Shown here one piece after another: positions 39,680 to 58,179 of a stretch of 64,000 nucleotides of DNA. Source of the DNA: an uncultured Actinomycetota bacterium (lineage in GTDB: Bacteria; Actinomycetota; Actinomycetes; Mycobacteriales; Mycobacteriaceae); the NCBI GenBank assembly GCA_963848185.1, contig CAWKCR010000022.1:102019-166018 (forward strand), written 5' to 3'. The first letter of the stretch is position 1; the number at the start of each line of letters is the position of its first letter. The position numbers and the translations under genes are program-made. Below the pieces are notes generated by a model. That model saw nothing but the letters and a program-made list of their open reading frames with translations. It was not told where the DNA came from and searched no databases.

Positions 39680-40213
39680 CTATACGAATGGCGCTGATCC
39701 GTCCTGTGGGAACGTAACAGTGACGGCGTCAGAATCCGAGATGCTCTGGAGGAGATCGTAGAGGTTCTCCACGCCGACATACGTTCCGTTGGGTGCACCG
39801 CCGATGATTTCCACGACGGCCATATGCAGATGCGGTGGGATGCCGCCGAACTCGTATACCGTGCCGAGCACGTCGCCGCGCGTGACCTGGGAACCTATCG
39901 CCAGTTCCGGCGGCACGTCGGAGATGTGCGTGTAGAACGCGCCCATCATGTCATTGGGTGCCCGCATGAACAGTTGAGCGCCATATTCTCCGGGCATCCT
40001 TGCGCCATCGACGCTTGGGTCGTGCGGATTCAGTCGGGTGATGTGTGCGTCGAACGCCGCCCGCACCACGGTGCCGTGTACGGCACCGAGGTCCATGCCG
40101 CACTTGATGTACCACTTGTCGCCGACATGGCCACCCTGGTTTGGGCCCCCGAGGGCGCCGGTGAATTCGCCGACTCCGAACGGACCGGAAACATCGATCG
40201 AGAACGCGCTCAT
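39680..40213 (-). CDS. M23-family peptidase-like protein
   Basis: GMDLGA..GT.V.A, FYTH, V..G.VLG, PPHLH; no signal peptide. Confidence 0.75.
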   Translation of the reverse strand: MSAFSIDVSGPFGVGEFTGALGGPNQGGHVGDKWYIKCGMDLGAVHGTVVRAAFDAHITRLNPHDPSVDGARMPGEYGAQLFMRAPNDMMGAFYTHISDVPPELAIGSQVTRGDVLGTVYEFGGIPPHLHMAVVEIIGGAPNGTYVGVENLYDLLQSISDSDAVTVTFPQDGSAPFV

Positions 40214-40257
40214 TTCAATCTCCTTACATGACAGGTGAATTCCACGGATCCCGATAC

Positions 40258-41583
40258 TCAGGCCAGCGCCGCCCGCACCGCGGCAGGCAGGTCGGGGTGG
40301 TCGCGGGTCAATTCCTGGCCCTTGACCACGCCCTCGATGTCTTTGATCTTGCTCTGCATCTTGAACATCTGTGAGTCGTCGAGATCACCGACCCGGAAGC
40401 TCTCCGGAACGCCCGCGGCCGCAGCAACCTCCGCGCCGTACTCGTCGGGTTTGTTGCCGTCTTCCAGCGGTGCCCAGCGGTGAAAGGCCTCGGTGACGCC
40501 CAGGTCGCGGTACTTGCCGGCGGGCCACTGCCGCGCCCCGCGCGTCTTGGCCGGGTAACCGCCATTTCGCAACGCCCGCTTGATCGCCTCGAAGCCCGCC
40601 TCGGCGGTCGGGAAGATCAGGAAGTTGTGCCAGTTGAACTTGTTCCGATACTGGCCCCAATCCGGACCACCCGGCACGCCGGTGATATTGCCAGGGTTGT
40701 TGTCCAGCCAGGCGAACGTGCCCGGGTGTCTCTTCATATGTGGCTGCCCACCGAAGATCACCCCGCCGGCGTGAACGACGTAGTTGAAGATCTCGCCACC
40801 ATGGCCGCCATAGTCGATGGGGTTGTGCGGGTCGACACCCCGAAACCAAGCCGTCCGCGGGATATCCAGCGCCGTAGAGATTCGTCCGTCGTGGTACCAG
40901 ACGTGGTCGCCGGGCCCCAACCCGCCCGCAGGTGGTGGCGGCGCGCCGGCACCCAGTTTGATCCAGGACGCATCGACTCCTTCGGCGAGGCCCGCGGCGG
41001 AGAAACCGGGCCAATTGTCGGCGATCGGTATGGGATAGTCCGCGGCGACTCCCGTCCCCACGACGTAACGGACATATTGGCCGCCCTTGAACAAGTACGC
41101 GTTGCCGTCGCCCCAGTTGATAGCCGCGTCGATGCTGTCACCAAACCCGGCCTCGGCCATGCCCGGCCAGTTTCCCGCGATCGGCGCCGGATGGCCGGGA
41201 TCTACTGTGTCGCTTTCGATGTCGTATTGAATGTATGCGTCACCCTTGAAGAAGTACGCCTTGCCGTTGCCCCAATTGATCGCGGCGTCGAGTCCATCGG
41301 CGAATCCAGTCTCGCCAAGCCCGCCCCAATTTCCGGCGATCGTTCTGGCCGCGCTGTCGACTGCGTTGCTCTGCTGGTCGATCCGCAGGTACTCGGAGCC
41401 ACGGAACAAGTACAGCTTGCCCTTTCCCAGGTCGATCCCCGTGTCGAAACCGCCCGCGAAGGCGGTGGCGTCGATACCCGCCCAGCCCGCCGTGAGCGCC
41501 TTGGGGTAACCCGCGTCGACGGTGTTGGCAACCGTGTCGTAACGCGAATACGTGCCGCCCCTAATGAAGTAGGCCTTGGCCAT
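40258..41583 (-). CDS. Hemopexin-repeat protein fused to an NNPGNI-type lysozyme-like domain
   Basis: Four repeats of DAAINWG.G.AYFFKG..Y..Y.....YP..I..NWPG, Pro/Gly linker, then NNPGNI...F.T.EAG...RWAP..N...Y. Confidence 0.8.
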   Translation of the reverse strand: MAKAYFIRGGTYSRYDTVANTVDAGYPKALTAGWAGIDATAFAGGFDTGIDLGKGKLYLFRGSEYLRIDQQSNAVDSAARTIAGNWGGLGETGFADGLDAAINWGNGKAYFFKGDAYIQYDIESDTVDPGHPAPIAGNWPGMAEAGFGDSIDAAINWGDGNAYLFKGGQYVRYVVGTGVAADYPIPIADNWPGFSAAGLAEGVDASWIKLGAGAPPPPAGGLGPGDHVWYHDGRISTALDIPRTAWFRGVDPHNPIDYGGHGGEIFNYVVHAGGVIFGGQPHMKRHPGTFAWLDNNPGNITGVPGGPDWGQYRNKFNWHNFLIFPTAEAGFEAIKRALRNGGYPAKTRGARQWPAGKYRDLGVTEAFHRWAPLEDGNKPDEYGAEVAAAAGVPESFRVGDLDDSQMFKMQSKIKDIEGVVKGQELTRDHPDLPAAVRAALA

Positions 41584-41615
41584 AACGCACCTCCTGTGTC
41601 AAATGTTTGTGCTGC

Positions 41616-44600
41616 TTATTCCGCCCATGGCCCACTTGGCCGGACGGTGTCGAACGCCAGCCCGCTTGAGCTCTCCCCGGTTCCAGGGGCTTTCTGCCTG
41701 CGGGTCCAGCTGTGCCAGGATCCGTCGAACCACCGCGCCAACACCGGCCGGCGCAGCATCACCACGCCCTCGCGCGGGACCTCTTCCTCGTGTAGCCACA
41801 GGTCGTCGGGAATGAGGCGTCCTTCAGGTCGTGCGCTGATCCCGGGGGCGTTCAAATCGGCCAGGTGGAAATGGATCACCTCGGGTTGGACCATCCGGGG
41901 AACCAGTGGGAACCAGTAATTGGGGACGACGGTTTGGACGCCGTAGGCGGGTAGCTCACCGGCGGGAACCGGTGGGGGAGCGTCCCGAAGCCAGCGGTCC
42001 CGTCGGTCGACGCGTTCTCCTCGACCGTCGGTAAAGCTGTGCTGGACGGCCCATACCAGGTTGGCCAGCTCGTCGCGGGCCATGCCCACCCGTTCCATTA
42101 CCTCACCGGTATGCGGTTGCGCGGCCGGCATCATCAGCAGTCCCGACGCGGCGGCGTGACCGGGATCCGAACTGTCGAGGGTGAACATCGACCACGTCGG
42201 ATCGTCGCGGCCGGCCCGCTCGATGAAGTGGTGGCGGTCGAAGACGTCGCGCACCAGCATCCTGTCGAGCACTGTGAGCGACCCAGCCGGAACCTCCAGC
42301 GGGGCGAGAAACCAGTCGTTGCCGTAGACGGTGGCGAAGGAAATCAGCAGCAGCCTGCCGGTATCCAGCGTGGAGGCATCTGTGGCACCCAGATCAACCT
42401 CGCTGTCCTCCATTTCCCAGAAGCGGTCCGCCGGTATGCCGCCGTAGCGAACCGGCGAGGGCAGCGCTTCGTCGGCGAAGGTGTATGGCGACCCCGCCCG
42501 GGCTGCCTCGCTGTCGGGGTCGACGTCGGCGCAGTACCAGTCCAGTCCGTCGGCGAGGTACTGCGAGATGCGCAATACCGCCCCGCGAGTGGACAATTCG
42601 GCCTCATGTTCGATCCGGTGCGGGTCGAAACAGTCCGGACTGTGATCGGCCAGCACACCCGACCACCATTGCCGCCAGCGTCCGGGGACGCCCCCAAGGC
42701 CCGCGCCGAAGGTGGTGTCGTCGATGGCCGCGGCCACCGCCTCCGCGTCGGGAACGCGGCCGCCCAGGGGGCCGAGCAGACCCACGACGGTGTTGTCGAT
42801 GACACCATCGGGCATCAGATGACCGGCGAGCCCGCCTGCGGCGGCGTCCAGTAGCCCGGCCTCATCCAGCATGTGCACGAGATGGGCGCCGCCCTCGGCG
42901 CGCAGCCGTTCGTCGATGCGCACCGGCTCGGCCTCCACCACCGCGTCCAGCGGGATCGCGCTGGGGGTATAGGTGAGCCAATCGGTGGTGCCGGCCGGCC
43001 GCCACGCATCGATGGGTGCGCTGCTACCAGTGAAGCGGACCCAGGCCGGGGAGCCGGCGTCCTGGGCGCCGAACTCACCGAACTGCCACTGACGCGTGAG
43101 CAGCCACAGCGGATCGTGGACGCGGGCAGCCAGACCGGCATCGACACGTTCGAGGGTGCGGTGGTCGGGTTCCAAGCGGATCGGGCCGGCTGGATCGAAT
43201 TGGTGGCCGGTTGGGGTCTGCATCCGGGTCAACACCACCCCGGCCGCGCTGTCGCTGGCGATCCGGATGGCCGGCAGCAGGGCGCGCATGGGCGGAAGGT
43301 CGTTGGTGTCGACGGCCCGCAGCTTGGCCCACTCCAGCGTCTCGCGGAGCACCTGAACCAGACCGTCCGATGTCCATCCGCGGTCGAGATCCGGTGGCAC
43401 GGCAAGGATTATCGAGTGCGGAGCCTTGGCGTCGGGCCGGTCGTAGTGGAACGCGATCCCGCTGAGCTCGGACTCCGGTGGCGACGTGACCGCGGGCGAG
43501 CCTGCCGCGGCCTGCCGCAGCCGATCGGATCCGGGCAACAACTCGACCCACTCGTCCACCAGAAGTCCGGTGACCGCACCGGGTGTCGGAGCAAACGGCT
43601 GATGCCACACCAGGTGCGTCGTCGCGCTTGGGCGGGTCTCGGCGCCGAACACGCCGCCCACCCAGGCGTCTGCCGCGTCGGCGGGATCCTGTGCAGCGAA
43701 CAAGATCTCGCTGCGCTGAGTCCGTGCTCCGGCCAATAGCATCGCCTCGTGCATCGTCCGCGCGACGCCGCGGACCCGGGTGTAGCGCAGCAGCCAGGCA
43801 TCGAGCTCTGATGGGGTGGCATCGGCGCGGGCCTCCGGTGCCGCACCAGTGACACGGGGAACCAGCGGCACATCGGCCCCCAGTACGTCGGTCAGCGCGG
43901 TCCGTGCCCGCAGCAGCCAGTCCGCGGGCGTTTCCGCCGGCGCATCCTCGGGTGCCTTGGCGGCGACGGCGGCCAGCGTCGCCGCGCGGGCATGTGCGAC
44001 GACGGCGGGGTCGGCGGCGAACGTGGCGAGCCGCCTCCGTACCTCGGTGACGTCGAGCGATCGGACGTCGGCACCGGGTAGATGCATCGGCAGCATCGGT
44101 TGCGCCTCGGCGAGCAGCGCCCGGATACGCACGGCCACACCGTGTAGGCCCACCCAGTCGTTGCCGCTGAAGGTGATCGCGGTGTCGGCGGGCAGGCCGG
44201 ACACGGCCAGAAAGCGGCTGCGCAGACCGGTCGGCTCGCTCGCGGTGATATCGAGAGTTGTCGCCAGCGCGCTCATTCCGGGCGTGTCGAGGCTCTGCTC
44301 GATGGGCTGGTCGCTATCGGCAGTGCCCGCGATCGTCCACCCGGAGGCGGGGCCGAGCAGGTGCGCCACCCATGCCTCGATTTCCGGCGCGAGCCTGGAG
44401 ATCGCATCGCTGGGCCATCCGGTCGGCTGCGTAGGCGCGTCGGGCAGCACCACGGCAAGCCGGTTGGTCAGCGCGCGGGCCCGGTGTGGGGTGATCAACG
44501 TGTGGAAGGTGTCGGGCACGTCCTCGCCGCGGCCGAGCGTGTCGGCGGCCAAGCCGGCCCGCACGGGGTTGCCTCCGACGAGCTGGTGCACGCTTTCCGC

Positions 44601-47400
44601 CAGCAGCAGGTCGCCGACCGCGTCCAGCGCGTCGGCCAGGTCGGCCAGGATGGGTGCGCACCCTGGCGGGTTCGTTGGCGACGGAGAGGGCTGCGGGGTC
44701 GCGGGCCAGCGCTACGCCGTCGACGACGTTGCGGGCGGCGATGGCCTCGGTGCTGCGGGCCCACAGGTCGGTGGCGGCGTCGTTGGTGGGAGGCTCGGCC
44801 ACAACGGGTGTCGGGTATTCCTTGCGGAAGTTGGGGATCTCGGTGTCCAGGTTCGCGTCGTGCAGTGCGCGTTCGAAGCGGTAGCCCAGCAGAGCGCCGA
44901 GACTCTGGCCCTGACGCACACCGCCGATCAGCCAGCGGGCGACGCGGCTTCGGCGCGAATTCAGGTTGACCGAATAGGCGTTCTCACCCGGATGCGTTTG
45001 CGCCCCGGATCTCAGCACCGCGGCAGCGGTGGCGTGCTGCAGCGACGGCGCATGGATGTAGCCCTGGCCGGATCTGATGGCCGGTAGGTCGTCAGGGCCG
45101 ATATCGACCAGGTCGTGTTCCTGCGGTGGGCGCAGGTCCTCCACCCAGCCGTAGCCGCCAATCCTGATTCCGTCGACACCGGAGGCGCGCAACTCGCCGA
45201 GTCGGCGCGATGCCAGCGACGTCGCCCACGCGTCAATGCGGTGGCAGTAGACGTCCATCACCTCGAGAACCAGTTCGGCGATCCGGGTGACCGGTACCGC
45301 CGCAACCGCGCGCAGCAGGTGTTCGAGGCGCGCGAGTGTGGCCGATGAGCGGGCCGCGTCGGCGATCTCGTCCTGCGGGTCCGAAGCGTTGTCCAGCACG
45401 TCGGCGACGATCTGGTCGACGGTGTCGTTGAGGGTCAACGCGGTGCCCAGTGAGTCGCCGTCCAGCTCCATGAAGGCCCAGTTACGCACGGACACTACGG
45501 CTTCGAGCAGCCCGCTGCCCTCCGGCATGTCGAAGAATGTGGTCCGGCGGGGGCCTACCTCGCTGTCGTCGCTGCGCAGTACAGGCCACGCCTGGTCGTA
45601 CTCAGCGGCGGACAATTCACCGGCGAGGAAGGCTTGTATGGCGTGGAGATAGTCGGCGGTCGCGGCCGCGGCGCTGGCAAAGCCTTCGTGACCCTGGGTC
45701 ATGCGGATCACGAAGTCCGGCAGGCCTTTCGGCGGTTGGGTATCGGTGCCCATGTCGGTCCAGGCATCCGTCGGAGTGGTCCAGCGCAGCGCGCCGTCGG
45801 GTGGCACACCGGCCAGGCTCAGAAACGACGGTGCCTCGTTGGGTGCGGTTCTCGACAGGGTGACTTCTGGGCCGTTGAGGCGTCTCATGGCCAGGCCAGT
45901 GGCCGCGGCCTGGCGGCTGAGCATGTCGACCATCACCTGATCGACCGATGTGCCTTCGGCGTTCGGGTCCGGGTTCAGTTGCCCGATCCGCGGAATGTTG
46001 CCCAGTACCTCACGCCACTTTTCGCGCAGGCGCAGCAGCCAGGGCAGCAGATGCGTGTCGGGCGCGTCGGCGCGGTCGGCGCGCCAATCGGTCAACGACG
46101 ACGCCGGCAGGATGGCGTAGGGCTGGCGTCCGACCCGCAGCATCGGTAGGGAGCCGCGGCCCCGTACGTGGTCGATGAGGTGGTCGCGGATGTCTCGCCA
46201 AGGCTGTTGCGAATCGACGGCGCTGAAGCTGCCGTTGGCGAGGTTGTGGTGGGCGACCGCCGCTTCGGAGAACTCTCGCCCGAACGCCGCCCACGTGAAC
46301 ACGGTGAGCCCGGTGAGCGCGTCGAACTCGGGATCTGTTGCGCCCGGACAGTTTCGCAGCAGCGCCGCGTCGGCCAGGCCGAGGGCGTGGGTAAGAGTGT
46401 CGGCTGTGGGGGCGGTGTCGGGGCCCGGATCGGGGGACGGCGGCGGGTAGGTCGGACGGGAGGACCAGCCGGACCTGCTGGTGGGAGTGTTGTTGGTCGG
46501 CGTGCCGGGTTTGAGCATGGCCAGGCCGGCGCCGAACATGTGGCCGCGCAGCAGGTCGGCCAGGTGATCGGCGCCTGCCGCTGCCGGCGCGTCACCGACA
46601 CCGACGACCAGCAGCTCGTCGAGATGATCCAATCCCTCTGGGAGGGGCGTGATCTCGACCGCCATGCCGTGTTTGACCGCCTCGAACCAGTGCACCGTCC
46701 AGCTCTCCTGCTCGTCAAGCAGGTCCAACGGCAGGGGATTCGGGATCGGTCGGCCAAGCTTGTCGATCACCACCTCGCCGCCGACGAGGCCGACGAAACG
46801 CCAACGGCGGGGCATCGTGACGGTGCCGCGGGGCCGGGCGTCAGCCTCGCGGATGACCGGCGGTGGTGCGCCCGGCCGGGTTGCATGGGCGATCCAAGCG
46901 GCCCTGTTGGGCCGAACGGTTGTCAGCAGCTGCTGCCACTCCTCGGGTCCGGGTGCCCGCCAGTACTGTGCACCGGACTGCGCCTCCACGGGCGTCAGCG
47001 CGGGGTCCAGCTTCGCCAGGTGCATATCGTCGGGATACACCCGCACCCGCAGCGAATGTTCGTCCCACCAAACGGTTTCCAACCGGACCGGCAGCAGCGC
47101 GATCGGGTCGGTGTTGTGGTCGGCGAACAGCTTGTCCTCGGCGTCGAGTGCGTCGGCGAGGGCTTGCTCGACGCTGCTCAGCGAGCTGCGGGTGTTATCG
47201 GCGGCCTGCTGGAGGGCGGCGTGCTGGGTGGCCGCGGCGGCGACCTGTTCGGCGGTGGAAGTCCCGGCGGCGGCGCGGTCTCGCAGGCGGCGCAGGATGG
47301 TGGCCTGGGTGTCGGCGGCCGCTTGCTCGCGTTCATGCCGAATGCGCAGTCCATCGACCAGGACCCGGGCCGAGAACGACGCTGAGAGCGGCTCAGCCAT
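41616..47400 (-). CDS. Giant (~1927 aa) uncharacterised protein, split by one frameshift at ~44660
   Basis: ORFs 44314-47400 and 41616-44591 join if one base is removed. Motifs LLPVRLET..VRVYPDD, GTPTNNT, GYIHAPS..HATAAAVLRSG, AESVHQ, ARVHDPLWLLTRQWQFGEF. Confidence 0.75.
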
Positions 47401-47439
47401 CGCCGTGCCTCCTCGGATGTGCCGCGCCGCGGTGCATTG

Positions 47440-49992
47440 TCATGGCCCCAGCAGGGTGGCGGCCCGGAACGCCAGTTGGAAAGGCTGCTGAAACGCGATA
47501 CGCGCCATATCGGCCGGATCCCTGCCCCACACCGGCGGATCCGGCGTGTCGGCCGGGGGACTCACCGTTGGTGCGGTGTCGGCGCGTACGCATCGGTTGG
47601 CGTGCACGGGTACGGCGTTCCAGGTCAGATTCGCCCAGGACTTCATCGGCCCCTGAACGCCGAGGTCGAAGCCGAATTGGGTGCCGCGCATGGGTTCTCG
47701 CAGCACGAAGAACCAGTCCTGATCGCGGGCGGTGTCTTCGTCGATGCCGGAGAACAAGAACAGCACCGTGGATTCGTCCAGCGGCAGTTGTATCGCGGGG
47801 ATGGGGGTGAATGTTTCTGGCAACCTGCCGTTTTCGCCCTGAACCGCCAGCAGCGCGGTGCCCGGGAACCGCCTCAGCACTTCGCCGCGCATCAGCAGCA
47901 CGATGCTCCCCTCGGTGCCCTCGCGGATCTGGCTGCCCAGCGCGGTGTCGACGGGCCAGCGGGCGATCTCGTCGATGTCGGCGCCGGGTGTCGGCCAGAA
48001 CCGTGCAAACGGTGTGCCGCGCTGATCGGTGGGGAACTCGCGCCACAACAGCTCGCGGTTGAACTCCTGGTTGAGGCCCACCAGCAGCGCCGCGACGAAA
48101 CCGGGATTGGTTTCCAGGATCGTCACCGAATCCGGTGGCAGGCCTTCGATGCCGGGAATCGCCCAGTCCGGCCAGCGCGCCAGGATCTCCTCGGCGACGG
48201 CCACGTGGAACTGGGGATGGGCCATGATGGGGCGCAGCGGCCGGGGCTCCTCGGGGGTGCGGTCGGCAATGTCTGGTGCGGCGATGAGACCGGCTATGCG
48301 CCGCAGCTGCAACGGGATCGGCGCGGTTCGTGCGCGCAGCTCGTCGGGCAGCTCCAGTGCCGGCTCGCCGGGTGCCAGGCCCATTCCGTCTTGGCGGCGG
48401 GGTAGTCCGGCCCCAATTTTCGATGCGTCGTTGGCGGCGCCGTCTGTCACCCGGTCGACGCGGCGGCGCACCGCTCCACCGGTGCGGGCCAGCCGCGAAA
48501 AGGCGGTCGTCGCCATGCCGTCGGGAACCTGCGAGTCGGCCAGGACGTCGGACAGCGTCGCCGATTCGTTTGGGGGAACCAGTCCTGGGCCATCGGTCCT
48601 GCCAAATCCCGGTGGCAGCACGACGCGGCCGGCCAGCGGAGCCATCGTGGTCACCAGATCCGCCGGGGCCAGCGGTTGAATGTGCTTGCGGTGACTCACC
48701 TCTGCGGTGACCGCCGCCAGCTCGGCGGCGGCCAGTATCCGGTTGGCCTCTCGGATCGCCCCGACCTGCTCCCAGGCGCGGGCCATCAGGAACTCTTGCT
48801 CGAGCTGGACGTACCGGGCGCCCAGCGCGGCCGCCACCCGCCTGCGCACCTCGAGGTTGAGTGTGGTGATCCAACCCAGGTCGTCGTCTGCTGCGACGGT
48901 CTGCTCACCGGAATGATGGCTGCCGTACAGCGGGGGACCGACCGCGGTGGCGTCGCGGTCAGTGTTCGGGCCGTCGGGAGTGGTGTCTTGGCGGCGGGCG
49001 GCCGGGGCGTTCAGCTGGTCGCGGAGGTCGCGGCGAAAGGTGCGCTGAAGCGTTTCGTCTGACCATTTTTCGGTGTCGGGCGGGCCAGGTACGCGCAGTG
49101 CGCCGTCGAGGGCCACCGTTGCCGGACCCGCGGCCTGTCCGGCCGGCCACGGGTGGCTCACGTCGACGATCCGCGAACCCAGGCCCAGCGCATCGGCTTT
49201 GGTGAACTTCAGCCGCCGAGCCAAGTCCTCGAAGCTGCCGGCTTCGCCGGTGCGAAATGTCCACCAGTGGTAGACGGGCAGATCGACCGTCGCGCGGCCA
49301 TCGGCGGGTGGCCACGCCTTGTCGGCGGGCGCGGCCACGGCCGCATTGCCCAGGCCCGCACTCACGCCTGCCGCGGTCGCGGGCACGACCGCGGCGATCC
49401 ACGTCTTGTGCGGCTCGAGGCGGCGCGGACACACCAGCCGCGCCACGACCGCCGCGGAGCGGGTGCGCACACCGTCGGTGGCGATCTTCTCCGCGGTCCC
49501 GACATCTTGCACCGTGTCGTCGAGGCGGGCCTCGACATGGGCCCAGGCCCAGCTTTCGTCGAGCGGCGGCAGGGCGGCATGCGGAGCGGTGAGGATCGGC
49601 AGCGGGTTGGCGTCTCGTGGCGGGGTGGCCTCGTCGGTGGACAACACCACCAGCACGATCCACGGAAAGGGTTGGGCCGCAGCGCCTCCCGGCCGCTCCC
49701 GGAGCGACACCAGCCAGGGTAGGTCAGCGTAGGCCAATTCGACGCTGGCCAGGATGTTTTCGGCGACCGAAGTGGTGCCTGGTGGCGGCTCCTCGCGCAT
49801 GATGAGTCCGCGCTCGATGCCGGCGACATGGCCCGGGCCTGCCAGCCGCAGATCGGGGCCCGGCGCGGTGATATCTGAAGCGCCACCACCCATTTGGCGG
49901 TTGAACGTCACCTGGGTCTTGAGTGCCGGCCCGGCCGACACCCCCGCGGCCACCCCATGGCGGGCTGAGGAGAAGAACCACCGCGTGCTCAC
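47440..49992 (-). CDS. Large (~850 aa) uncharacterised protein
   Basis: GTGA overlap with the upstream gene; motifs ADLPW, WAWAHV, RLVCPRRL, LPVYHWWTFRTG..GSFEDLARRL, RELLWREFPTDQRGT. Confidence 0.8.
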   Translation of the reverse strand: MSTRWFFSSARHGVAAGVSAGPALKTQVTFNRQMGGGASDITAPGPDLRLAGPGHVAGIERGLIMREEPPPGTTSVAENILASVELAYADLPWLVSLRERPGGAAAQPFPWIVLVVLSTDEATPPRDANPLPILTAPHAALPPLDESWAWAHVEARLDDTVQDVGTAEKIATDGVRTRSAAVVARLVCPRRLEPHKTWIAAVVPATAAGVSAGLGNAAVAAPADKAWPPADGRATVDLPVYHWWTFRTGEAGSFEDLARRLKFTKADALGLGSRIVDVSHPWPAGQAAGPATVALDGALRVPGPPDTEKWSDETLQRTFRRDLRDQLNAPAARRQDTTPDGPNTDRDATAVGPPLYGSHHSGEQTVAADDDLGWITTLNLEVRRRVAAALGARYVQLEQEFLMARAWEQVGAIREANRILAAAELAAVTAEVSHRKHIQPLAPADLVTTMAPLAGRVVLPPGFGRTDGPGLVPPNESATLSDVLADSQVPDGMATTAFSRLARTGGAVRRRVDRVTDGAANDASKIGAGLPRRQDGMGLAPGEPALELPDELRARTAPIPLQLRRIAGLIAAPDIADRTPEEPRPLRPIMAHPQFHVAVAEEILARWPDWAIPGIEGLPPDSVTILETNPGFVAALLVGLNQEFNRELLWREFPTDQRGTPFARFWPTPGADIDEIARWPVDTALGSQIREGTEGSIVLLMRGEVLRRFPGTALLAVQGENGRLPETFTPIPAIQLPLDESTVLFLFSGIDEDTARDQDWFFVLREPMRGTQFGFDLGVQGPMKSWANLTWNAVPVHANRCVRADTAPTVSPPADTPDPPVWGRDPADMARIAFQQPFQLAFRAATLLGP

Positions 49993-52949
49993 GCCGGTAC
50001 CTCCCAGGCCTCCAGGAAGCGGGTCGGCTGCGTGGGGTCGCGAAGCTGGTCGCGCATCACCTGCCACAGGTCGACCGCGGTCTCGACGGTCGCCTCGGCG
50101 ATCGGCTGCGCGGCACGCTCTTCAAAAACGTTGCGGTCCACCGCGATCAGGGTGGTGTCCATCGGACGTAGCGTCGGGCCCGCGACGGCCCTCAGCGACG
50201 GTGGCCGCAATCCCACCGTCACCGCCGCCGGCCGCCAGCGTTGCAGGCGCTCGGCGACCGAGTAGCTCAGCGACGTCTCCTGCGCATACAGGCCGGGCCA
50301 CTTCGATACCGCGCGGGGATCTGCCAGCGGAGGCTCGTATGCGGTTTCGTAACCGTCGTCCACCCGATGCCCGGCGCCGAGTCGAAAGCCACCGGTCACC
50401 ACCTGTTTGCCGCTGTTGTGGGTGGAAGTCGGCGGAGCGGTGAGCTGTTCGTCCTCGGTCAGATCGAACAGTTCGCCGCGGACAAAACGCTCCACGAGGT
50501 CGCCGAGACGGTCCGCAGGTTGCACCACCCCGACCTGGACGCTGGTGATGGCCCAACGCTGCTCGGCGACCCGGCGGCGCGAGTACTTGGTGAAAACAAC
50601 GTCCAGCGGAACCACCGCTTGGCTGACCCGGAAGGTGGAATCCGGGTGCACGAGGGTGCCGGCTGTCATTTCTTCGGCGGCCGTGCGGGTGAACGTCAAA
50701 CCGGTCCGCTCGGCGCTGGGGCGTTCGATGATCCAGGCGTCGGGTTTGTTGATCGCAGCCTTCACGGGGCCGGACAGGTCGTCGCCGACGATGCGGGCGG
50801 CCACCGCCGGTGGAGCGCCCCAGCCGATGTCGAAATCCAGGTCGACGTCCCAGAACAGCACCGAGATGCTGCCGGTGCCGAACGCATGCCATGGCGCCGG
50901 CCCTTCCAGGGTGAAGTCCAGTCCCACGCTGGCCAGCCGCTGGCCGAGAGCGCGCACGGCCACCCCGGCGAAGATGCGCACCGAGAACGAGAAGGTCGGG
51001 TCGAAGCGGAAGAGCGCGTCCAGTCCCAGCCAACCCTCCACCCCACACTTGGCGATCATCGCTTCCAGGTGCAGGCGACCGCCGAACTGCACGGCGTTGG
51101 ACGTGACCGCGAAGTACGCCTCGATGCTCATCGCGAAGGGGAAGCCGGGCCGCAGATCCATCTGCAGACGCTGCAGCGCGGGTACGCCTGCCGGGCGGAC
51201 GTACCGTGGGTGGAACCCACCGGCCGACAAGACGAACTCGGGGCGGTCACCGCCCCGGACCAGCAGGTAGATCTCGCCGCGCACTGCCAACCCGACGATC
51301 CAGGATCCAGCCAGGGAGACCAGCAGTTCGAACGACGGCACGCCGGGATCGAATCGGCCAAGGATGCTGGCTTGCAACCGAACCAGCGGCACCACGGGGT
51401 CGGGCACCCCGACAAGCAGCCGACCCAGAATCACCGCCTGCACCGGTGCGGGCAGCTCCAGAATCAGCGCACCGGACAGTGACACCATCCGTCCGCCCCA
51501 CGTGATCCGCACCATCGGGGCGATGACGAACCTGCTGCCGGCCAGCGGGAATGCCGCCGACAGCGCGCCGATCACCTCGTCGGCGCGCTCGACGATCCGC
51601 TCGGGGAACAGCACCCGATCAGCATGACCGTCACTGACCAGGCGGGAGATCTCGGTGACGTCGACGCGGCGGTTGACGCCGACGAGGCCGCCGACCGCGT
51701 CGAGGGCGAATCCGAAGCAGAGTTGGATCCCCGGCGGTGGGAATTGCGCGGCGAGGACCACGACGAAACTGGTGGGATTCTTTGCGTCGGGCGGTCGGAA
51801 CACCGCAACGGCCTGCATGCCGATGACGCCGAGATCGACCGCGATGACGCCGCCGTAGCTGGTGTCATCGATCTTGCGGACGAACCCGCCGCCGGACACC
51901 GGGGGAAGCGTGAGGTTCACCCCGATGCCGTCAGGGGTGAGTGCACGGAGACCGGCCGGGTCCAGGCGGGGCCGCTGCCCAGCGGGAAACTTCAGGGGCA
52001 GACTACTTCCCGCGTCACTGAGCATTGCCCGCAGCGGTAACCCGGGCAGGCTCGCGGTGAGTGAGGTGACCACGCCCAGGTGCAGCGAGCCGTCGGACTG
52101 CGACAGAGTAAACGCAGTGCCGCGGCTTTGCAGGCCGGGGGCGTTGAGCCGCAAGGGAATTGGCAAACGCAGCGAGCTACCTCCGGCGAATCGCACGCCG
52201 TTGTTGCGGTCTGCCTCGACGGTGACCGTGATCGCTGCCGAGTCGTTCGACGCGGCCGGTTGGTTGGGCGACGTGCCGACCAGTCGTGCCAACTCCGCCG
52301 GCAGGATCGCTACCTCGACTCCGCGCAGCTGGACGGTGACCGTGGGCGGGGCCGGCGGGTTTGCGGCGACGGTGATCGCGAAACCCTTCAGCCGCATGCC
52401 CGGGCCCGTGGTCATGCCGGCCTGAAACGGTGCGGTGCGCTCGACGCGGACGCTGGCCGACCCGCCGGGCGGTGGCGGTCCGCCGGCGGCGACGTCCCAC
52501 CCGTCGGGAGCGTCCACGGTCACCGCCGCCGACCACTCCGCCGCCGGGTTAGGCGGGTTGGGTGTCTGGAATGTCAGCGCCGCCCCGCCCGACACGACGA
52601 CGTCGAACAGCGGGTTGTTCGCGGCATCGGGTGTGACGGCGACCGCGGCGAGGCGCGTCGGGTCGGCAGGGTCCTTGATCACCAACGCAATTCCGGGCCC
52701 GGCGTTGGGAGCGCGGCGCCAGCCGTGGAGGCGCACCGGCGAGTCGGCGTCGAGCTCGCCGGTGATGTCGCGGACCAGATCTGTCAGCGGGTTGCCCGCG
52801 GGAGGCACGACCACCGAAAGCAGCCGTCCACCCATCAACGCGTCGCCGGGTTGCAGGGCCGGCAGCTGGGCGAGCAGATCACGGACCGCCCGGTCGACGT
52901 AGGCCTTCAGCTCGGCGGTGACCAGCCGCCACAAATCGTTCGGGTTCAC
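49989..52949 (-). CDS. DUF6603-like beta-rich protein (~986 aa)
   Basis: GIQL.FGFAL..VGGLVGVNR, FVLSAGGFHP, YFAVTSNAVQFGG, LEGPAPW; GTGA overlap with the WD40 gene. Confidence 0.75.
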   Translation of the reverse strand: MNPNDLWRLVTAELKAYVDRAVRDLLAQLPALQPGDALMGGRLLSVVVPPAGNPLTDLVRDITGELDADSPVRLHGWRRAPNAGPGIALVIKDPADPTRLAAVAVTPDAANNPLFDVVVSGGAALTFQTPNPPNPAAEWSAAVTVDAPDGWDVAAGGPPPPGGSASVRVERTAPFQAGMTTGPGMRLKGFAITVAANPPAPPTVTVQLRGVEVAILPAELARLVGTSPNQPAASNDSAAITVTVEADRNNGVRFAGGSSLRLPIPLRLNAPGLQSRGTAFTLSQSDGSLHLGVVTSLTASLPGLPLRAMLSDAGSSLPLKFPAGQRPRLDPAGLRALTPDGIGVNLTLPPVSGGGFVRKIDDTSYGGVIAVDLGVIGMQAVAVFRPPDAKNPTSFVVVLAAQFPPPGIQLCFGFALDAVGGLVGVNRRVDVTEISRLVSDGHADRVLFPERIVERADEVIGALSAAFPLAGSRFVIAPMVRITWGGRMVSLSGALILELPAPVQAVILGRLLVGVPDPVVPLVRLQASILGRFDPGVPSFELLVSLAGSWIVGLAVRGEIYLLVRGGDRPEFVLSAGGFHPRYVRPAGVPALQRLQMDLRPGFPFAMSIEAYFAVTSNAVQFGGRLHLEAMIAKCGVEGWLGLDALFRFDPTFSFSVRIFAGVAVRALGQRLASVGLDFTLEGPAPWHAFGTGSISVLFWDVDLDFDIGWGAPPAVAARIVGDDLSGPVKAAINKPDAWIIERPSAERTGLTFTRTAAEEMTAGTLVHPDSTFRVSQAVVPLDVVFTKYSRRRVAEQRWAITSVQVGVVQPADRLGDLVERFVRGELFDLTEDEQLTAPPTSTHNSGKQVVTGGFRLGAGHRVDDGYETAYEPPLADPRAVSKWPGLYAQETSLSYSVAERLQRWRPAAVTVGLRPPSLRAVAGPTLRPMDTTLIAVDRNVFEERAAQPIAEATVETAVDLWQVMRDQLRDPTQPTRFLEAWEVPA

Positions 52950-53998
52950 CCGACACCACCGGTGACGTCGAGTACCACCGCCTTGTTGAAATGCCCTAGG
53001 CCCAGCCAGAGGCTGTTGGGACTGAACCGGAGCGCAAGGACCTCGTCGGTGTTCTGCGGGGGGAAGCGTCTGACCCCCGTCGCCACGTTGATGGCCTGCA
53101 CGACGTTGTCGATTGCGGTGCTCGCCGCCCACTTTCCGTTCGGACTGAACGCGACGTGGGTGACTGCGCCGGTGTGCTCGAGGCGGAAGGTGTTCTCCAC
53201 GCCGGACTCTGCCTCCAGAATCCGCGCGGAGTCGTCGGCGCCACCGACCACGGTCCAGCGGCCAGTCGGGTCGAAGGCGACGTGAGTGGATCCGAGCGAG
53301 TCCTCGCGTTCGAGGTCTTCCGGTACCTGCCATAGCTGAGTACCGTCGTCGGACTTGAACATTCGCGTAGTTCCGTCGGCACTGCCGAACAGAACCATGG
53401 ATGCGTCCGGGCTGAACGCTACGGCGTGCACCGCGTCGTCGGGGGTCTTGCGGCTGCGCTCGGCGCCGGTGGTGAGGTCGAACACGCGCGCGGAGCCGGC
53501 TTGGTGATGGTTGCCGCCGTGGCGTTCGTCGATGGCGACCGCGAGCAGCTTGCCGTCCTTGCTGAGGTCGACGTCGACGATGGTCTGGTCGACGACGATC
53601 GGTGGCAGAACCGGGTCACCGGTCGCCGCGTCGAGCACCGCGATGCGAGTGTCGGTGGTTGCGATGAGCTGTTGTCCGTCGGGAGTGAAGGTGACGGAAT
53701 TGACCGAGCTCGCCGCCTCGATGGCACCTTCCCAGCCGAGCGCCCCGTTGCTGGCCGAGTGGGTCGCGACGCGGTCGAGATCGGCCAGCGCGAGCGTTGC
53801 ACCGTCGGGACTGAACGCGATGCTCGAGACGAATCCGTTGACCGGGATGTCCAGCTTCGGCCCCGTCTGCACCGCGCGGACAAGGACGTTGGTGCCGGCC
53901 CCTCCGCTGGCGAACCGCGTCGAGTCTGCGCTGAACGCAATCGCATTGACGGAGCCGTCGTGATCGACAGTGAGGATGGCACTACCCGCTTGACTCAT
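52946..53998 (-). CDS. WD40 repeat beta-propeller protein
   Basis: About eight V..VAFSPDG repeats; GGGGGAG RBS. Confidence 0.9.
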   Translation of the reverse strand: MSQAGSAILTVDHDGSVNAIAFSADSTRFASGGAGTNVLVRAVQTGPKLDIPVNGFVSSIAFSPDGATLALADLDRVATHSASNGALGWEGAIEAASSVNSVTFTPDGQQLIATTDTRIAVLDAATGDPVLPPIVVDQTIVDVDLSKDGKLLAVAIDERHGGNHHQAGSARVFDLTTGAERSRKTPDDAVHAVAFSPDASMVLFGSADGTTRMFKSDDGTQLWQVPEDLEREDSLGSTHVAFDPTGRWTVVGGADDSARILEAESGVENTFRLEHTGAVTHVAFSPNGKWAASTAIDNVVQAINVATGVRRFPPQNTDEVLALRFSPNSLWLGLGHFNKAVVLDVTGGVG

Positions 53999-54160: not shown

Positions 54161-54178
54161 CGAGTAGTGCACTACTCG
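54161..54178. promoter_or_regulatory. Island palindrome, perfect copy
   Basis: CGAGTAGTGCACTACTCG, a perfect 18-bp palindrome upstream of the WD40/DUF6603 operon. Confidence 0.78.
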
Positions 54179-54200: not shown

Positions 54201-55421
54201 CTAATGAAAGTCGTTGGCCAGCGGGAACAGCCCGTCTCCTGGCGGACGGGCCAGGTCGGGATTGAGGGCGGTGAGTTCGGCCGAGTCCGCGGCGTCGCGA
54301 AACAGCTGCGCGCTGATCTGCTGTGCTTCGGTGTTGCCGCTGAAGGTCATGTTCGCGCACTGGCGTAGCCACAGGGCGATCTGGCGGTAGGTCGCCGCGT
54401 GTCCCTGGGCCAGGATTCCGGGGATGTAACCGTTGTCGTCGAACAGTTCGGGGTCGGTTTCGGCGAAGTAGAAATGTGCGGCTTCGGAGAGTGCGACCGG
54501 CTGCAGGAACTGCGCGGCGAACGGATCGCCCGCATTCTCGCGCTCGATGATCCAGTTGACGTGGCGCGCGTTCATCTCATGGGCGAACTGAAAGAAGACG
54601 CGCGCCGTCGGTCTACCGGTCGCCTGGGACAGGTTTGCCGCCAGATTGGGATCGAGGAAGCTTTCGGTGTCGAAGGTCGGGGTGTTCTCCAGACCCAGCC
54701 CTTTGTTGCGCATATGGGTCAGCTCATGGCACAGCACGGCGCGCAGATCGACCTTCGCCTTCCGGCCGGTCGGATGGTGGGTGAGCGACATCCGGCCGCG
54801 TATCGTCAGGTCGTTGAAGGCGATCGCGACGTGTTCCTGTCCATCGGTGCCGTCGAAGTCGACCGTGATGCCCGCGGCGTCGGGGCGCATGTCGCGGTCG
54901 ATGTGGTCGATGATGGCGGCGGGTATTCGGTTGTCCTGAACACCACGAATCCTGCTGTGCGCGACGATGGCAAGGCAATGACCCGAATTCAGCGCCGATC
55001 GCATGAAGCCCCCGAGGTCGTGACGTTGGGTGTTCAGTGGCGCATCGATAAGCGGTGCAAGTTCGAATCCGACGAAGGGCTCCACCACATGTGCGGCGAC
55101 GAACGAGGCAACTTCGCCGAACGCTGGATCCAGGCTTGGCGGGTCGACGAACAACTCCGCGTCCAGCTGGCCCGACGTCCCTTTGCCGACCACCGGATCG
55201 GTCGGCTCCAACCCGCGGCTCTGCTTGAACGCACTCACCGCTGCGCCGGTTGCGTCACCGAAGATCCCGTCGAGCCCACCGCTCGGGAAACCGAGTGTGT
55301 CCAATGCCTCCTGGACGCGCATGACCGAGAGGTTCTCCTCGGGTGCGTGCATCCGGTGGGCGCCGGCGAAGCATTGCTCCAGGACGGGGTCGAGGGAAAA
55401 GCGAGGGGAATTCAGTCCCAT
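54201..55421 (-). CDS. Peptidoglycan-binding domain protein with C-terminal HExxH metallopeptidase-like domain
   Basis: VQEAL..LGF....DGIFG..T..AV.AF....GL..D.VVG..T; HELTH followed by HEMNAR. Confidence 0.8.
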   Translation of the reverse strand: MGLNSPRFSLDPVLEQCFAGAHRMHAPEENLSVMRVQEALDTLGFPSGGLDGIFGDATGAAVSAFKQSRGLEPTDPVVGKGTSGQLDAELFVDPPSLDPAFGEVASFVAAHVVEPFVGFELAPLIDAPLNTQRHDLGGFMRSALNSGHCLAIVAHSRIRGVQDNRIPAAIIDHIDRDMRPDAAGITVDFDGTDGQEHVAIAFNDLTIRGRMSLTHHPTGRKAKVDLRAVLCHELTHMRNKGLGLENTPTFDTESFLDPNLAANLSQATGRPTARVFFQFAHEMNARHVNWIIERENAGDPFAAQFLQPVALSEAAHFYFAETDPELFDDNGYIPGILAQGHAATYRQIALWLRQCANMTFSGNTEAQQISAQLFRDAADSAELTALNPDLARPPGDGLFPLANDFH

Positions 55422-55456
55422 TGTCCGGACCCTTTCTGACGGTCTCATAGCCGGTC

Positions 55457-55523
55457 TCCGCCGAATCTGAGCTTGTGTGCGAAATTTCGGCGATTTGTCG
55501 AGCACAAGCTCAGTTTCGGCGGA
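55457..55523. repeat. 21-bp imperfect inverted repeat (REP-like element or terminator)
   Basis: TCCGCCGAATCTGAGCTTGTG ... CACAAGCTCAGTTTCGGCGGA, immediately after the regulator stop codon. Confidence 0.75.
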
Positions 55524-55527: not shown

Positions 55528-58179
55528 CTAGCTGTGGGCGCCGCTGCGGATAAGCGCGGCCAGTTCCTCGCGGTCGGAGATGTCGAGCTTGATGCACGCC
55601 CGGTAGAGGTGGCCCTCCACGGTGCGCACCGACACCGTCAGCCGGTCGGCGATGTCGCGATTGCTCAGCCCCGCCGCAACCAGATTGGCGATCTCGCGTT
55701 CACGGACCGTCAGCGGCAACGGGTGTGCGGCCAGATCCAGTGCGGGGGTTCGGATTCCGCCGCACTCGGCCGCCAGCCGGTTCGCCGCCGCGGCCGCCTC
55801 CACGCTGCGGCGGCGGTCGTCGGCACCCTCGAACGCGACCGCCGCCTGAGCGAAAGCATCGGCCGCCGACAACAGCGCACCGATCTCCTCGAATCGCTGC
55901 GCCGCGGTCGAAATTCCCGCCCCGTCGCGGTCGCGCACCGCCTCGGCATGTGCCGCGATCGCCGCCGCCAGACGTCCACCCGTCGCGGCCGCCACCTCGA
56001 CGAGCCGGTCCAGGGAAGTCTGATCGCCGAACCGCACCGCGTCGTGCAGCGCCAGCATCTCGATCGCCTGCTGCCCCGAGTCCGCCGCCTGCCGCGCCGC
56101 CTCCAGCGCGAGATCGATTGCGGCGCTGATATTTCCCTCCGCAGCGGCCAGCCACGACTCGGTGATCGTGAGCTGCGGGCCGAACACCGCGACGTGCCGG
56201 CCGAAGCGCGTCTTCACTTCGGCCACCATCTTGGCGCCGGGCTCCACGCGGCCCAGCACACAGTAGGACTGCGCCAGCAACAGACGCGCCGGGAAGCTCC
56301 ACGACGCCGCCGACTCCGCGGTCAAGGCGGCAACCGTTTGTTCCATCCGCGGCACCGTATCGGCGAACAGCCCCCGGGCCACCCCGACGGTTCCGACCAG
56401 CACGTTGGCCATACCCCACGCCAGGTACTGGCCCGAGGACGTGATCCGGATGATGTCGGCGGATCGCTGTGCGGCGGTGTCGAAGTCGCCGGCCAGCGCC
56501 AGCGCGCGGACCTCACCGAAGGCGGCGAGATGGCGCAGCAGTCCGTCGACCCTCCTCTCCACCTGATGGCCCCGCTCCGCGACCGCGGCGACCTCGTCAG
56601 CGCGACCCATCAACGCCAGCGCCAGCGCGCCGCCGAACGCGGCCCATTGGACGGCGGTCGGGTGGGCGTCGGGATCGGCAAGCACCCGCTCGGACAGTGC
56701 GACGGATTCGGAGAGCTGATTCTCAAACGCGCGGGACGCGGACGCGACGCCGTCGACGAGCAGCCGCAGCCCGTTGTGAGTGATCTTCTCCCGCAATAGT
56801 TCCAGCACCTCGTCGGCGCTCTCGGCATCGCCCATCGACCAGTGCAGGTTGGCGATTCGCGCCAGACCCCAACGCACCAGGTCGATTTCGTTCATCTGGT
56901 CCGGGTCGAACGAGTTCAGCGTCTCCTCGGCCTCTGCGGCCTTACCCTGCCACAGCAGCGACCGGGCCAACAGCTCGCTGGCGGTCAGGCCGCCGCCGCG
57001 GTTCACGGCGGCACGGGCCAGCCGCTCACCCAACGTGACGTTCGTCAGCGCGATCGCGTCCCGCGCCGCAGTCTCTAACAGCTCGAGGTCGGGCGATTGG
57101 TCGCTGTCGAGCGTCAACTCCGCCAACCGCATACGGTCCGTCGGCCCACGCAACGGGTGACCCTGCAGCGCGCGCACCACCTCGCCGCGCAACCGACGCG
57201 CCGCCGCCATGCCCAGCCGCCGGCGGATCACCTCCCCGAACAACGGATGGTTGAACCGCACGTCGATGTTGGAATGGTCCTCGACGACGCGGATCAGGCC
57301 GCGGTTCTCCGCATCCTCCACCGCGTCGACACCGACGATGTCGGTCAGCGTGTCGAGATTCAAAGGCTCACAGAACGTCAGCAGCCGCAGCGTGTGCAGC
57401 ACGTTGTCGGGCAGCTGATCGACCCGGGAATCCAGCAGCGACGCCAGTTCGGAGGTGACCGCGGTCCGGCCGCGCAGCTGCCACACACCGCGGACCTGAC
57501 GCAGTGTGCCCGCCTCCAACGCGCCCTCGACCAGGTGCCGGACGAACAACGCGTTTCCGCCGGACGCCTCCCACATCAGGTCGGCCGACAGTCCCTCGAC
57601 GCGGCCGCCGAGCGCCTGCTCGATGAGACTGACGCACTGATCCCTCGTGAAAGGCATCAGGTGCAGCCGCTGCAGATAGCCATCCTTCCACAGCGAGGTG
57701 ATCGCGTCGGGCACCGTCTCTCCGGCCCGCACCGTGGCGACGATGCGGACCGAGCCGTCCAGCGCCAACTGGTGAAGCAGGGTTGCCGACAGTTGATCCA
57801 GCAAATGCGCGTCGTCGACACCGATCACTGAATGGCCTTCGGCGAGAATGGTTTCGCGCGCCGCCGACAGGAACGCCACCGGATCCCGGGACGTCGCGGC
57901 CCCCACCAAGTGCGCGAAGACTCCGAGCGGGATGCTGCGCGCCGACTCGGTACCGGCCACCCACTGCACCCGCGACGGCAGCGACTGCGTCACCAGGCGG
58001 GCAAGCGTTGTCTTGCCCACGCCGGCATCGCCGATCAGCACGATCCCGCACACACCCGTTTGCTCCACCAGCGCGTTGTAAATCGCCGTGTATTCGGTAT
58101 CGCGCCGGACCACAGGCCAGTTTTGGGCCACGACCTCGAACTTTACTACCTCCGGGGGGAGGAGAGCGGGACTTGTCAC
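55528..58179 (-). CDS. Large AAA-ATPase LuxR-family (MalT/LAL-like) transcriptional regulator
   Basis: GDAGVGKT, VDDAH, GGNALF, helical repeats, C-terminal LTVREREIA.L.A.GLSNRDIA..L.VS.RTVEGHL. Confidence 0.93.
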   Translation of the reverse strand: MTSPALLPPEVVKFEVVAQNWPVVRRDTEYTAIYNALVEQTGVCGIVLIGDAGVGKTTLARLVTQSLPSRVQWVAGTESARSIPLGVFAHLVGAATSRDPVAFLSAARETILAEGHSVIGVDDAHLLDQLSATLLHQLALDGSVRIVATVRAGETVPDAITSLWKDGYLQRLHLMPFTRDQCVSLIEQALGGRVEGLSADLMWEASGGNALFVRHLVEGALEAGTLRQVRGVWQLRGRTAVTSELASLLDSRVDQLPDNVLHTLRLLTFCEPLNLDTLTDIVGVDAVEDAENRGLIRVVEDHSNIDVRFNHPLFGEVIRRRLGMAAARRLRGEVVRALQGHPLRGPTDRMRLAELTLDSDQSPDLELLETAARDAIALTNVTLGERLARAAVNRGGGLTASELLARSLLWQGKAAEAEETLNSFDPDQMNEIDLVRWGLARIANLHWSMGDAESADEVLELLREKITHNGLRLLVDGVASASRAFENQLSESVALSERVLADPDAHPTAVQWAAFGGALALALMGRADEVAAVAERGHQVERRVDGLLRHLAAFGEVRALALAGDFDTAAQRSADIIRITSSGQYLAWGMANVLVGTVGVARGLFADTVPRMEQTVAALTAESAASWSFPARLLLAQSYCVLGRVEPGAKMVAEVKTRFGRHVAVFGPQLTITESWLAAAEGNISAAIDLALEAARQAADSGQQAIEMLALHDAVRFGDQTSLDRLVEVAAATGGRLAAAIAAHAEAVRDRDGAGISTAAQRFEEIGALLSAADAFAQAAVAFEGADDRRRSVEAAAAANRLAAECGGIRTPALDLAAHPLPLTVREREIANLVAAGLSNRDIADRLTVSVRTVEGHLYRACIKLDISDREELAALIRSGAHS

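What the first reader, a model, noticed from the sequence alone, without database searches (positions are those of the whole stretch)
39680..53998. 14-kb operon of WD40 + DUF6603-like + two giant unknown proteins + cell-wall-active genes: candidate undescribed macromolecular system
Six co-directional genes. The first three are translationally coupled by GTGA overlaps at 52946 and 49989, and the remaining gaps are 32-44 bp. Order: WD40 propeller, a ~986 aa beta-rich DUF6603-like protein, an ~850 aa protein, a ~1927 aa protein, a hemopexin-lysozyme-like fusion, and an M23-like peptidase. The three large proteins have Trp/Pro-rich motif blocks but no catalytic motif, ATPase or signal peptide that I recognise, which suggests structural roles. 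I recall similar gene sets scattered across distant bacterial phyla with no assigned function. Inference: a stoichiometric complex such as a toxin-delivery particle, secretion apparatus or lipid conduit, with the downstream muralytic proteins as cargo or release factors. The operon carries the only perfect regulon palindrome.
Basis: partly seen in the sequence, partly recalled or inferred. Interest (0 to 1): 0.88.

Follow-up and report, generated by a model that had tools for sequence, protein, structure and literature searches.

The report
Giant DUF6603 complex with lipid-facing sheet
This soil mycobacterium carries a gene set of four large uncharacterised proteins that recurs in the same order across many bacteria and archaea; two of the proteins are predicted to lock together and one is predicted to form a long curved sheet that is greasy on one side only, so the set likely builds an undescribed membrane- or lipid-gripping machine for neighbouring envelope-cutting enzymes, although one gene is frameshifted in this assembly.

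Summary
The operon, overlaps and palindrome are real, but the '1927-aa protein' is not one ORF here: the frame breaks near 44658, while close relatives in three runs are open there. It is a fusion of two genes (C, D) that are separate in most lineages. The core is A (DUF6603)-B-C-D: A precedes B in 122/122 loci with room, C follows in 120/121, across several bacterial phyla and archaea. WD40, hemopexin-lysozyme and M23 are lineage-specific passengers; elsewhere a leaderless PhoD-family phosphodiesterase fills the front slot (22/78). A is predicted as a roughly 40-strand curved single beta-sheet with one near-uncharged aliphatic face, matching the apoB-100 belt and porin walls only in architecture (Z 14, rmsd 11). 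A's C-terminal domain is predicted to bind B (0.71 versus control 0.00). D has a confident model with no clear structural match. No paper naming DUF6603 was found. Best reading: a soluble complex that grips lipid or membrane and positions envelope hydrolases (0.4); a pore or toxin-delivery particle is the main rival.

The parts
54161..54178 (.). Perfect 18-bp palindrome 163 nt upstream of the WD40 start; likely regulator site
   Evidence: same motif upstream of the cassette in L031, L036, L079, L119 and nowhere else in 2.53 Mb of fetched loci
52946..53998 (-). WD40 beta-propeller, 350 aa; clade-specific front gene, coupled to A
   Evidence: Pfam WD40 E 7e-30; adjacent to A in 19 of 78 loci
49989..52949 (-). 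Core gene A, DUF6603, 986 aa: N-terminal helices, predicted beta-meander (about 72-710) with one aliphatic face, C-terminal domain (720-869) predicted to bind B
47440..49992 (-). Core gene B, 850 aa, no family; N-terminal strands predicted to pair with A's C-terminal domain
43182..47400 (-). Core gene C part (about 1400 aa) of the fused C-D gene; reading frame broken near 44658 in this assembly; boundary to D approximate
41616..43181 (-). Core gene D part (about 520 aa), a separate gene in most lineages; confident model without a clear structural match; shares a ~100-aa helical domain with C
40258..41583 (-). Leaderless hemopexin-repeat plus lysozyme-like protein, 441 aa; passenger gene
   Evidence: Pfam Hemopexin E 2.6e-33; PHROG 873 endolysin E 3e-8
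39680..40213 (-). Leaderless M23-like peptidase, 177 aa; passenger gene; HxH and Asp conserved, first His not at the usual spacing
   Evidence: Pfam M23 30.4 bits, cut-off 28.7; alignment of 9
54201..55505 (-). Peptidoglycan-binding-domain protein upstream of the palindrome; homologues lie near the cassette in four other loci; start uncertain
55528..58179 (-). AAA-LuxR (STAND-type) regulator, candidate reader of the palindrome (inferred, untested)
   Evidence: another motif copy lies 77 nt before a second Walker-A ORF of similar N-terminus on contig C21

Best explanation
Genes A (DUF6603), B, C and D are a co-inherited four-gene core whose products likely assemble into a soluble complex in which A's predicted long curved beta-sheet would grip lipid or a membrane with its greasy face, B is predicted to dock on A's C-terminal domain, and the complex likely positions co-expressed leaderless envelope hydrolases. 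Shown: the gene set, its order and spread, the exchangeable front and rear genes, the absence of membrane-spanning segments. Predicted: A's fold and two-faced composition, the A-B interface, D's fold. Inferred: that C and D join the complex (coupling, fusion), that the greasy face meets lipid rather than protein, that the passengers (PhoD-family phosphodiesterase in many lineages; WD40, hemopexin-lysozyme-like and M23-like proteins here) work with it, and that the outcome is attack on or remodelling of a cell envelope, in the producing cell or after lysis, under the neighbouring AAA-LuxR regulator. In this assembly C-D is frameshifted, so this copy may be inactive.
For: Co-inheritance: over 139 loci (not dereplicated) A lies upstream of B in 122 of 122 with room, C downstream in 120 of 121, D in 75 of 79, order A-B-C-D in 69 of 70 complete loci; 22 of the 25 genus genomes with B also have DUF6603, of 400 searched; long-form DUF6603 genes are followed by a B-like gene in 6 of 6 loci examined. 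Interface: B(1-850) with A(720-869) scored 0.71, best of 3 controls 0.00; the mark was reached by 116 of 157 solved complexes and 2 of 215 mismatched pairs (counts hold only roughly with my alignments); runs agree in at least 94% of contacts, partner pLDDT at least 77; profile searches with A and B found no solved relative. A model: pLDDT 86.5, continuous beta-meander; best structural rows apoB-100 belt Z 14.6, rmsd 10.8, 305 aligned, tied with maltoporin Z 14.2, rmsd 10.7; over the strands in 341-710 one face is L23 V16 A13 G12 F11 I11 percent with about 1 percent charged and W+Y 3 percent, the other about 29 percent D/E/K/R. The apoB belt is a lipid-contacting amphipathic sheet (PMC11839476, passages). 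Passengers: PhoD-like gene adjacent to A in 22 of 78 loci, metal-binding-type motifs in 11 of 11 checked; a PhoD-family member is a phospholipase D (PMC4223295, passages); lysozyme-like domain in 7 of 400 genus genomes, 6 of them cassette carriers; Ig, TIG, LTD and FG-GAP insertions in B, C, D and PG-binding, LGFP, hemopexin neighbours.
Against: All structural matches of A have rmsd 7-23 A and 3-11 percent identity and porins score as well as apoB, so the likeness is architectural only. The greasy face could be buried against C or D, which were not tested for binding. 36 of 78 loci have neither PhoD nor WD40 next to A, and many have no coupled front gene. PhoD-family enzymes also act on teichoic acid or as general phosphatases. 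The M23-like protein lacks the first His at the usual spacing and no solved relative of the lysozyme-like domain was found. Association counts are across kin and overstate independence. This copy is frameshifted, and G321, G319 and G106 copies also show frame breaks.
Confidence: 0.4

Rival explanations
1. Toxin-delivery or pore-forming particle: A's sheet closes, alone or with partners, into a membrane-spanning barrel in a target cell; B, C and D with their inserted binding domains aim it; the leaderless hydrolases are cargo.
For: Porins, TonB-dependent receptors and VDAC fill the top 50 structural rows (Z up to 14.3); Foldseek's best rows are ushers (E 3e-4 to 6e-4, TM at most 0.29); strands of 8-16 residues alternate greasy and polar; binding-type insertions and cell-wall enzymes; patchy spread and presence on 13 plasmid records.
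Against: rmsd 9-14 A to nearly every barrel, which fits an open sheet better than a closed barrel (inference); only 3 percent W+Y on the greasy face, whereas membrane barrels usually carry aromatic girdles (recalled); no signal peptide; many hosts lack an outer membrane; no Tc, Rhs or phage-tail family in the core; no consistent toxin or immunity gene among 83 neighbours and extended core proteins scanned.
Confidence: 0.25
2. Protein cocoon or compartment: A's sheet coils into a chamber closed by B (as Rhs shells do) that holds or chaperones an exchangeable enzyme inside the cell.
For: Weak Foldseek rows to Rhs cores and YenB/RHS2 (E 3e-3 to 3e-2, probability at most 0.11); exchangeable coupled front gene; A's length varies from about 900 to 3400 aa; B predicted to cap the end of A.
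Against: No Rhs row among the top 50 VIA rows; a strictly uncharged face over some 20 strands is more than a protein cargo would need (inference); PhoD passengers of 750-960 aa are large for a chamber of this size (inference).
Confidence: 0.15
3. Bridge-like lipid-transfer protein (VPS13/TamB-type) for routine lipid flow between membranes, with B-D as adaptors.
For: Continuous meander with one aliphatic face; variable length.
Against: No Chorein_N or AsmA Pfam match in 56 N-terminal parts; no membrane anchor; present in only about 6 percent of the genus sample and none of 14 control genomes; found in single-membrane archaea.
Confidence: 0.1
4. Secretion apparatus for the leaderless enzymes, or a scaffold unrelated to lipids.
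For: All passengers checked lack a hydrophobic signal, so they need a non-Sec exit or lysis.
Against: No membrane-spanning segment in family-averaged profiles of A-D and no ATPase family in the core.
Confidence: 0.1

Closest known systems
Pfam DUF6603 (PF20248)
   Same: Gene A is a member (305.8 bits, cut-off 27).
   Different: The family has no function; 0 papers hold DUF6603 or PF20248 in the library searched; B, C and D have no family.
Apolipoprotein B-100 beta-belt
   Same: Long single-layer amphipathic antiparallel sheet with inter-strand inserts; best VIA row, Z 14.6, rmsd 10.8, 305 aligned (PMC11839476 passages).
   Different: 6-11 percent identity, no vitellogenin-type N-terminal family, no signal peptide, about 40 strands against 120; analogy of architecture, not shown homology.
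Outer-membrane and mitochondrial beta-barrels (maltoporin, Occ porins, VDAC, ushers)
   Same: Strand length, alternation and curvature (Z 11-14).
   Different: rmsd 9-14 A, few W/Y, no signal peptide, many hosts without an outer membrane.
Repeating beta-groove lipid bridges (VPS13, ATG2, TamB/AsmA family; properties recalled)
   Same: Meander with one aliphatic face and variable length.
   Different: No Chorein_N or AsmA Pfam match, no membrane anchor, not among the top 50 structural rows, three obligatory partner genes.
Tc toxin and Rhs cocoon systems (properties recalled)
   Same: Few giant coupled genes, split or fused between lineages, inserted binding domains, exchangeable enzymes.
   Different: No Tc or Rhs family match, no sequence match in the PDB for A, B, C or D profiles, only weak Foldseek rows.

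Membership tests
DUF6603 (PF20248) | Score above the curated cut-off | tested here: met
   305.8 bits over residues 293-833, cut-off 27
Repeating beta-groove lipid bridges | Continuous antiparallel meander with one hydrophobic face | tested here: met
   (predicted model)
Repeating beta-groove lipid bridges | Chorein_N or AsmA-type N-terminal domain | tested here: not met
   no such Pfam family in 56 N-terminal parts at E up to 0.1; HMMER sensitivity only
Repeating beta-groove lipid bridges | Structural match to solved VPS13, ATG2 or TamB grooves | tested here: inconclusive
   not listed in the top 50 rows, which barrels fill
Repeating beta-groove lipid bridges | Lipid transfer activity | not testable with these tools
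   needs biochemistry
Outer-membrane beta-barrels | Cleavable signal peptide | tested here: not met
   A's N-terminus reaches 0.98 against 2.87 for a control (crude check)
Outer-membrane beta-barrels | First and last strands close the barrel | tested here: inconclusive
   rmsd 9-14 A to nearly all barrels; coevolution too noisy; coordinates not available
Large lipid transfer proteins (apoB, vitellogenin) | Vitellogenin-type N-terminal domain | tested here: not met
   no such Pfam match in A
Large lipid transfer proteins (apoB, vitellogenin) | Amphipathic beta-belt with the hydrophobic face concave | tested here: inconclusive
   Z 14.6 at rmsd 10.8, tied with porins; orientation of the face not determined
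Tc toxin / Rhs | TcA, SpvB or RHS/YD repeat families in the giant genes | tested here: not met
   no Pfam or NCBIfam match; no PDB sequence match
Tc toxin / Rhs | Structural match of subunits | tested here: inconclusive
   weak Foldseek rows for A; none for D; B and C not searched by fold
Contractile injection systems and phage-derived particles | Sheath, tube, baseplate or capsid genes | tested here: not met
   no PHROG match for A-D; none among neighbours scanned; no relative in viral contigs
Dedicated secretion systems | Membrane-spanning subunits and an ATPase | tested here: not met

The most novel reading that the evidence does not exclude
A-B-C-D is a prokaryotic lipoprotein-like or membrane-stripping machine of a kind not described: a belt-like amphipathic sheet (A) clamped by B and two subunits of new fold, with exchangeable binding tips and a slot for phospholipid- or wall-cutting enzymes, spread between bacteria and archaea as a lysis or antagonism module.
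Probability: 0.3. Interest if true: 0.92.

Novelty: categorically new. Interest (0 to 1): 0.76.

Why it matters
If A's sheet holds lipid, it would be a soluble prokaryotic analogue of the apoB belt or of lipid bridges in cells with a single membrane. If it forms a pore, it would be a new class of delivery particle. The predicted A-B interface and the conserved palindrome give a direct handle for pull-down, induction and cryo-EM.

Tried and rejected
Programmed frameshift: rejected, since relatives are open at that place and whole fused ORFs occur in G396 and 16 other loci. Whether the break is an assembly error: undecided; dnaE, carB and mfd are intact in G000, rpoB was not found (3 of 4 genes tested; genome 63 percent complete). 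Expression: no RNA holder listed. Phage origin: no relative of A or B in viral contigs, no BFVD match for D. B as a paralogue of C or D: no profile match. The ~1250-aa fourth protein of long-form cassettes as a C or D homologue: only motif echoes, probability under 2 percent. Two independent C-D fusions: suggested by the tree (62 loci with near-complete A, B, D) but one clade is not rejected (p-AU 0.31; 23 rows). Fold of D: no Foldseek row at E up to 0.001, best VIA Z 5.2 over 75 residues of an Ig-like sandwich; its C-terminal third is barely tested. VPS13, ATG2 and TamB were absent from the top 50 rows for A, which does not exclude them. Chorein_N likeness of A's first helix was recalled and not supported. 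Coevolution within A was inconclusive. Atlas: a B homologue returned only unnamed clusters, an A homologue nothing beyond PF20248, no models held. Promoter and terminator scans gave no more than chance. A planned check of interface conservation and of catalytic motifs by pattern was lost with the script machine, so 'no catalytic motif' rests on family scans only. Paper searches with no usable result.

Full report
Observation. The window lies on contig C22 of a 5.55-Mb assembly, 63 percent complete; gene content and hits suggest a soil Mycobacterium, which is my inference, as no call names it. Six minus-strand genes run from 53998 to 39680 with GTGA overlaps at 52946-52949 and 49989-49992. Pfam gives WD40, DUF6603, hemopexin and M23; the 850-aa gene and both halves of the giant gene have no Pfam, NCBIfam or PHROG family. 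The giant gene is not one ORF: the frame breaks near 44658. Contigs from 3 of 4 runs laid, about 95 percent alike, are in one frame there; the fourth does not cover the place. Three of four long housekeeping genes tested are intact and the fourth is missing from the assembly, so an assembly error and a strain-specific break cannot be told apart. The palindrome at 54161-54178 is real and recurs upstream of the cassette in four other loci and nowhere else in 2.53 Mb of fetched loci; two of the four (L031, L119) are probably one lineage.

Core and passengers. Over these 139 loci, which include near-duplicates, A is upstream of B in 122 of 122 with room, C downstream in 120 of 121, D present in 75 of 79 (the four misses have very long C genes that run past the flank), and the order is A-B-C-D in 69 of 70. 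The window's giant gene is C fused to D: they are separate in 7 of 10 genus relatives examined by hand, fused in G396 and unclear in two copies with frame breaks, and fused in 16 of the 78 loci with an intact A start. C and D share a ~100-residue helical domain (probability 70, E 4e-5). In 400 genus genomes B was found in 25 and DUF6603 in 26, with 22 in common; the DUF6603-only genomes carry a long form that is again followed by a B-like gene in 6 of 6 loci (E-values within a small ORF set; L190 and L194 are 98 percent identical). Pairwise distances of A, B and D correlate (Spearman 0.75-0.81), which kinship alone can produce. B-like genes are on 13 plasmid records, 11 non-mobilizable, and none was found in viral contigs. 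The lysozyme-like domain occurs in 7 of 400 genus genomes, six with the cassette, and within about 10 kb of it in four besides this one.

Structure. A folds with pLDDT 86.5, pTM 0.71 (127 sequences): helices to residue 63, about 40 strands from 72 to 710 with a conserved helical insert at 428-468, a domain at about 724-851 and a poorly predicted tail. Foldseek returns ushers at E 3e-4 to 6e-4 with TM at most 0.29; VIA returns porins at Z up to 14.3 with rmsd about 10-11 and, on Foldseek's candidates, the apoB-100 belt at Z 14.6, rmsd 10.8, tied with maltoporin. I read this as an open, strongly curved single sheet, not a member of either family. Across the family one face of the strands in 341-710 is aliphatic and almost free of charge and the other about 29 percent charged (faces were assigned per strand by hydropathy, which exaggerates the contrast for strands with bulges). 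D folds with pLDDT 86.5, pTM 0.83 and has no clear match in the PDB or BFVD. B and C were not searched by fold; their profiles find no solved relative. Family-averaged hydropathy shows no membrane-spanning segment in A-D. The complex model of B with A(720-869) scored 0.71 against a best control of 0.00, with about 250 contacts, B's strands at 24-35 and 54-60 pairing with A at 795-808 and 748-757; the mark was reached by 116 of 157 solved and 2 of 215 mismatched pairs, runs agree in at least 94 percent of contacts, partner pLDDT at least 77; the tool used 52 of 118 B rows and 122 of 127 A rows. This supports binding and does not show it.

Mechanism. The best-supported account is a soluble A-B-C-D complex whose A subunit offers a large lipid-compatible surface and which works with leaderless envelope hydrolases (0.4). 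That A and B bind I put near 0.85, that the greasy face meets lipid near 0.55-0.6, and the biological outcome (self-lysis, envelope remodelling or attack on neighbours) is the weakest step. The apoB belt is described as an amphipathic sheet bound to the lipid core (PMC11839476, passages read), and the PhoD family includes a phospholipase D and a teichoic-acid phosphodiesterase that are normally Tat-exported (PMC4223295, passages read). Rivals: a pore or toxin-delivery particle (0.25), a protein cocoon (0.15), a routine lipid bridge (0.1), a secretion or other scaffold (0.1). The open question that separates them is the side to which the greasy face points.

Comparison and novelty. Gene A is a DUF6603 member; membership in lipid bridges, barrels, apoB-type proteins, Tc/Rhs, contractile systems and secretion systems failed or stayed inconclusive as tabulated; properties of these families not tied to a call are recalled. 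Searches for DUF6603 and PF20248 found 0 papers, and six descriptive searches gave listings only, none on this system; the library lacks most subscription papers and supplementary tables were not searched, so a mention there is possible. The scan's own notes report the same cassette in at least six other genomes; these are not independent support. I class the system as categorically new on present evidence, with function unproven and this particular copy possibly broken.

Noticed in passing
window 30688-39563 and 58176-61346: An island of hydrolases around the cassette: LysM/Gmad2 protein, patatin, a 610-aa protein without a Pfam family, MBL hydrolase, subtilase, trypsin-endonuclease fusion, Tle1-like phospholipase. 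Four checked lack a hydrophobic signal; palindrome variants precede patatin (33545) and subtilase (37984).
   Followed up: partly
G000 C3:148828, C10:11865, C18:80158, C21:69317, C24:32645 and others: Eleven genome-wide copies of GAGTAG-N4-CTACTC with at most 1 mismatch, one just before a second Walker-A regulator-like ORF: a candidate regulon of mycobacterial AAA-LuxR proteins.
   Followed up: partly
L190-L195 (G211, G257, G130, G297, G362, G157): A second cassette type: DUF6603 proteins of 1600-3400 aa, then a B N-terminal-like gene, a short gene resembling B's C-terminus (2 of 6), and a conserved ~1250-aa protein with no family. G157 and G362 carry both types.
   Followed up: partly
L069:12919-19926: C and D are inverted relative to A and B in Streptomyces rubellomurinus, the only order exception among 70 complete loci.
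   Followed up: no
L083, L092, L093, L094, L096, L098, L102, L106, L109, L113 upstream of A: A subfamily of 750-960-aa PhoD-like proteins that begin directly with the conserved domain, without an evident export signal, although PhoD enzymes are normally Tat-exported.
   Followed up: partly
L081, L085, L134, L135: Haloarchaeal and metagenomic C genes extended to 2400-3300 aa or more, running past the fetched flank.
   Followed up: no
window 39596-39669: Long imperfect inverted repeat directly after the M23 stop, between convergent genes; similar stretches occur on other contigs of run X1.
   Followed up: no
window 23662-26089: Three adjacent GAF-ANTAR genes; recBCD lies at 2674-11395.
   Followed up: no
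window 50626, run X1: The closest relative's contig has a one-base insertion inside gene A that run X2 lacks; a compensating change may be among rows not shown.
   Followed up: no
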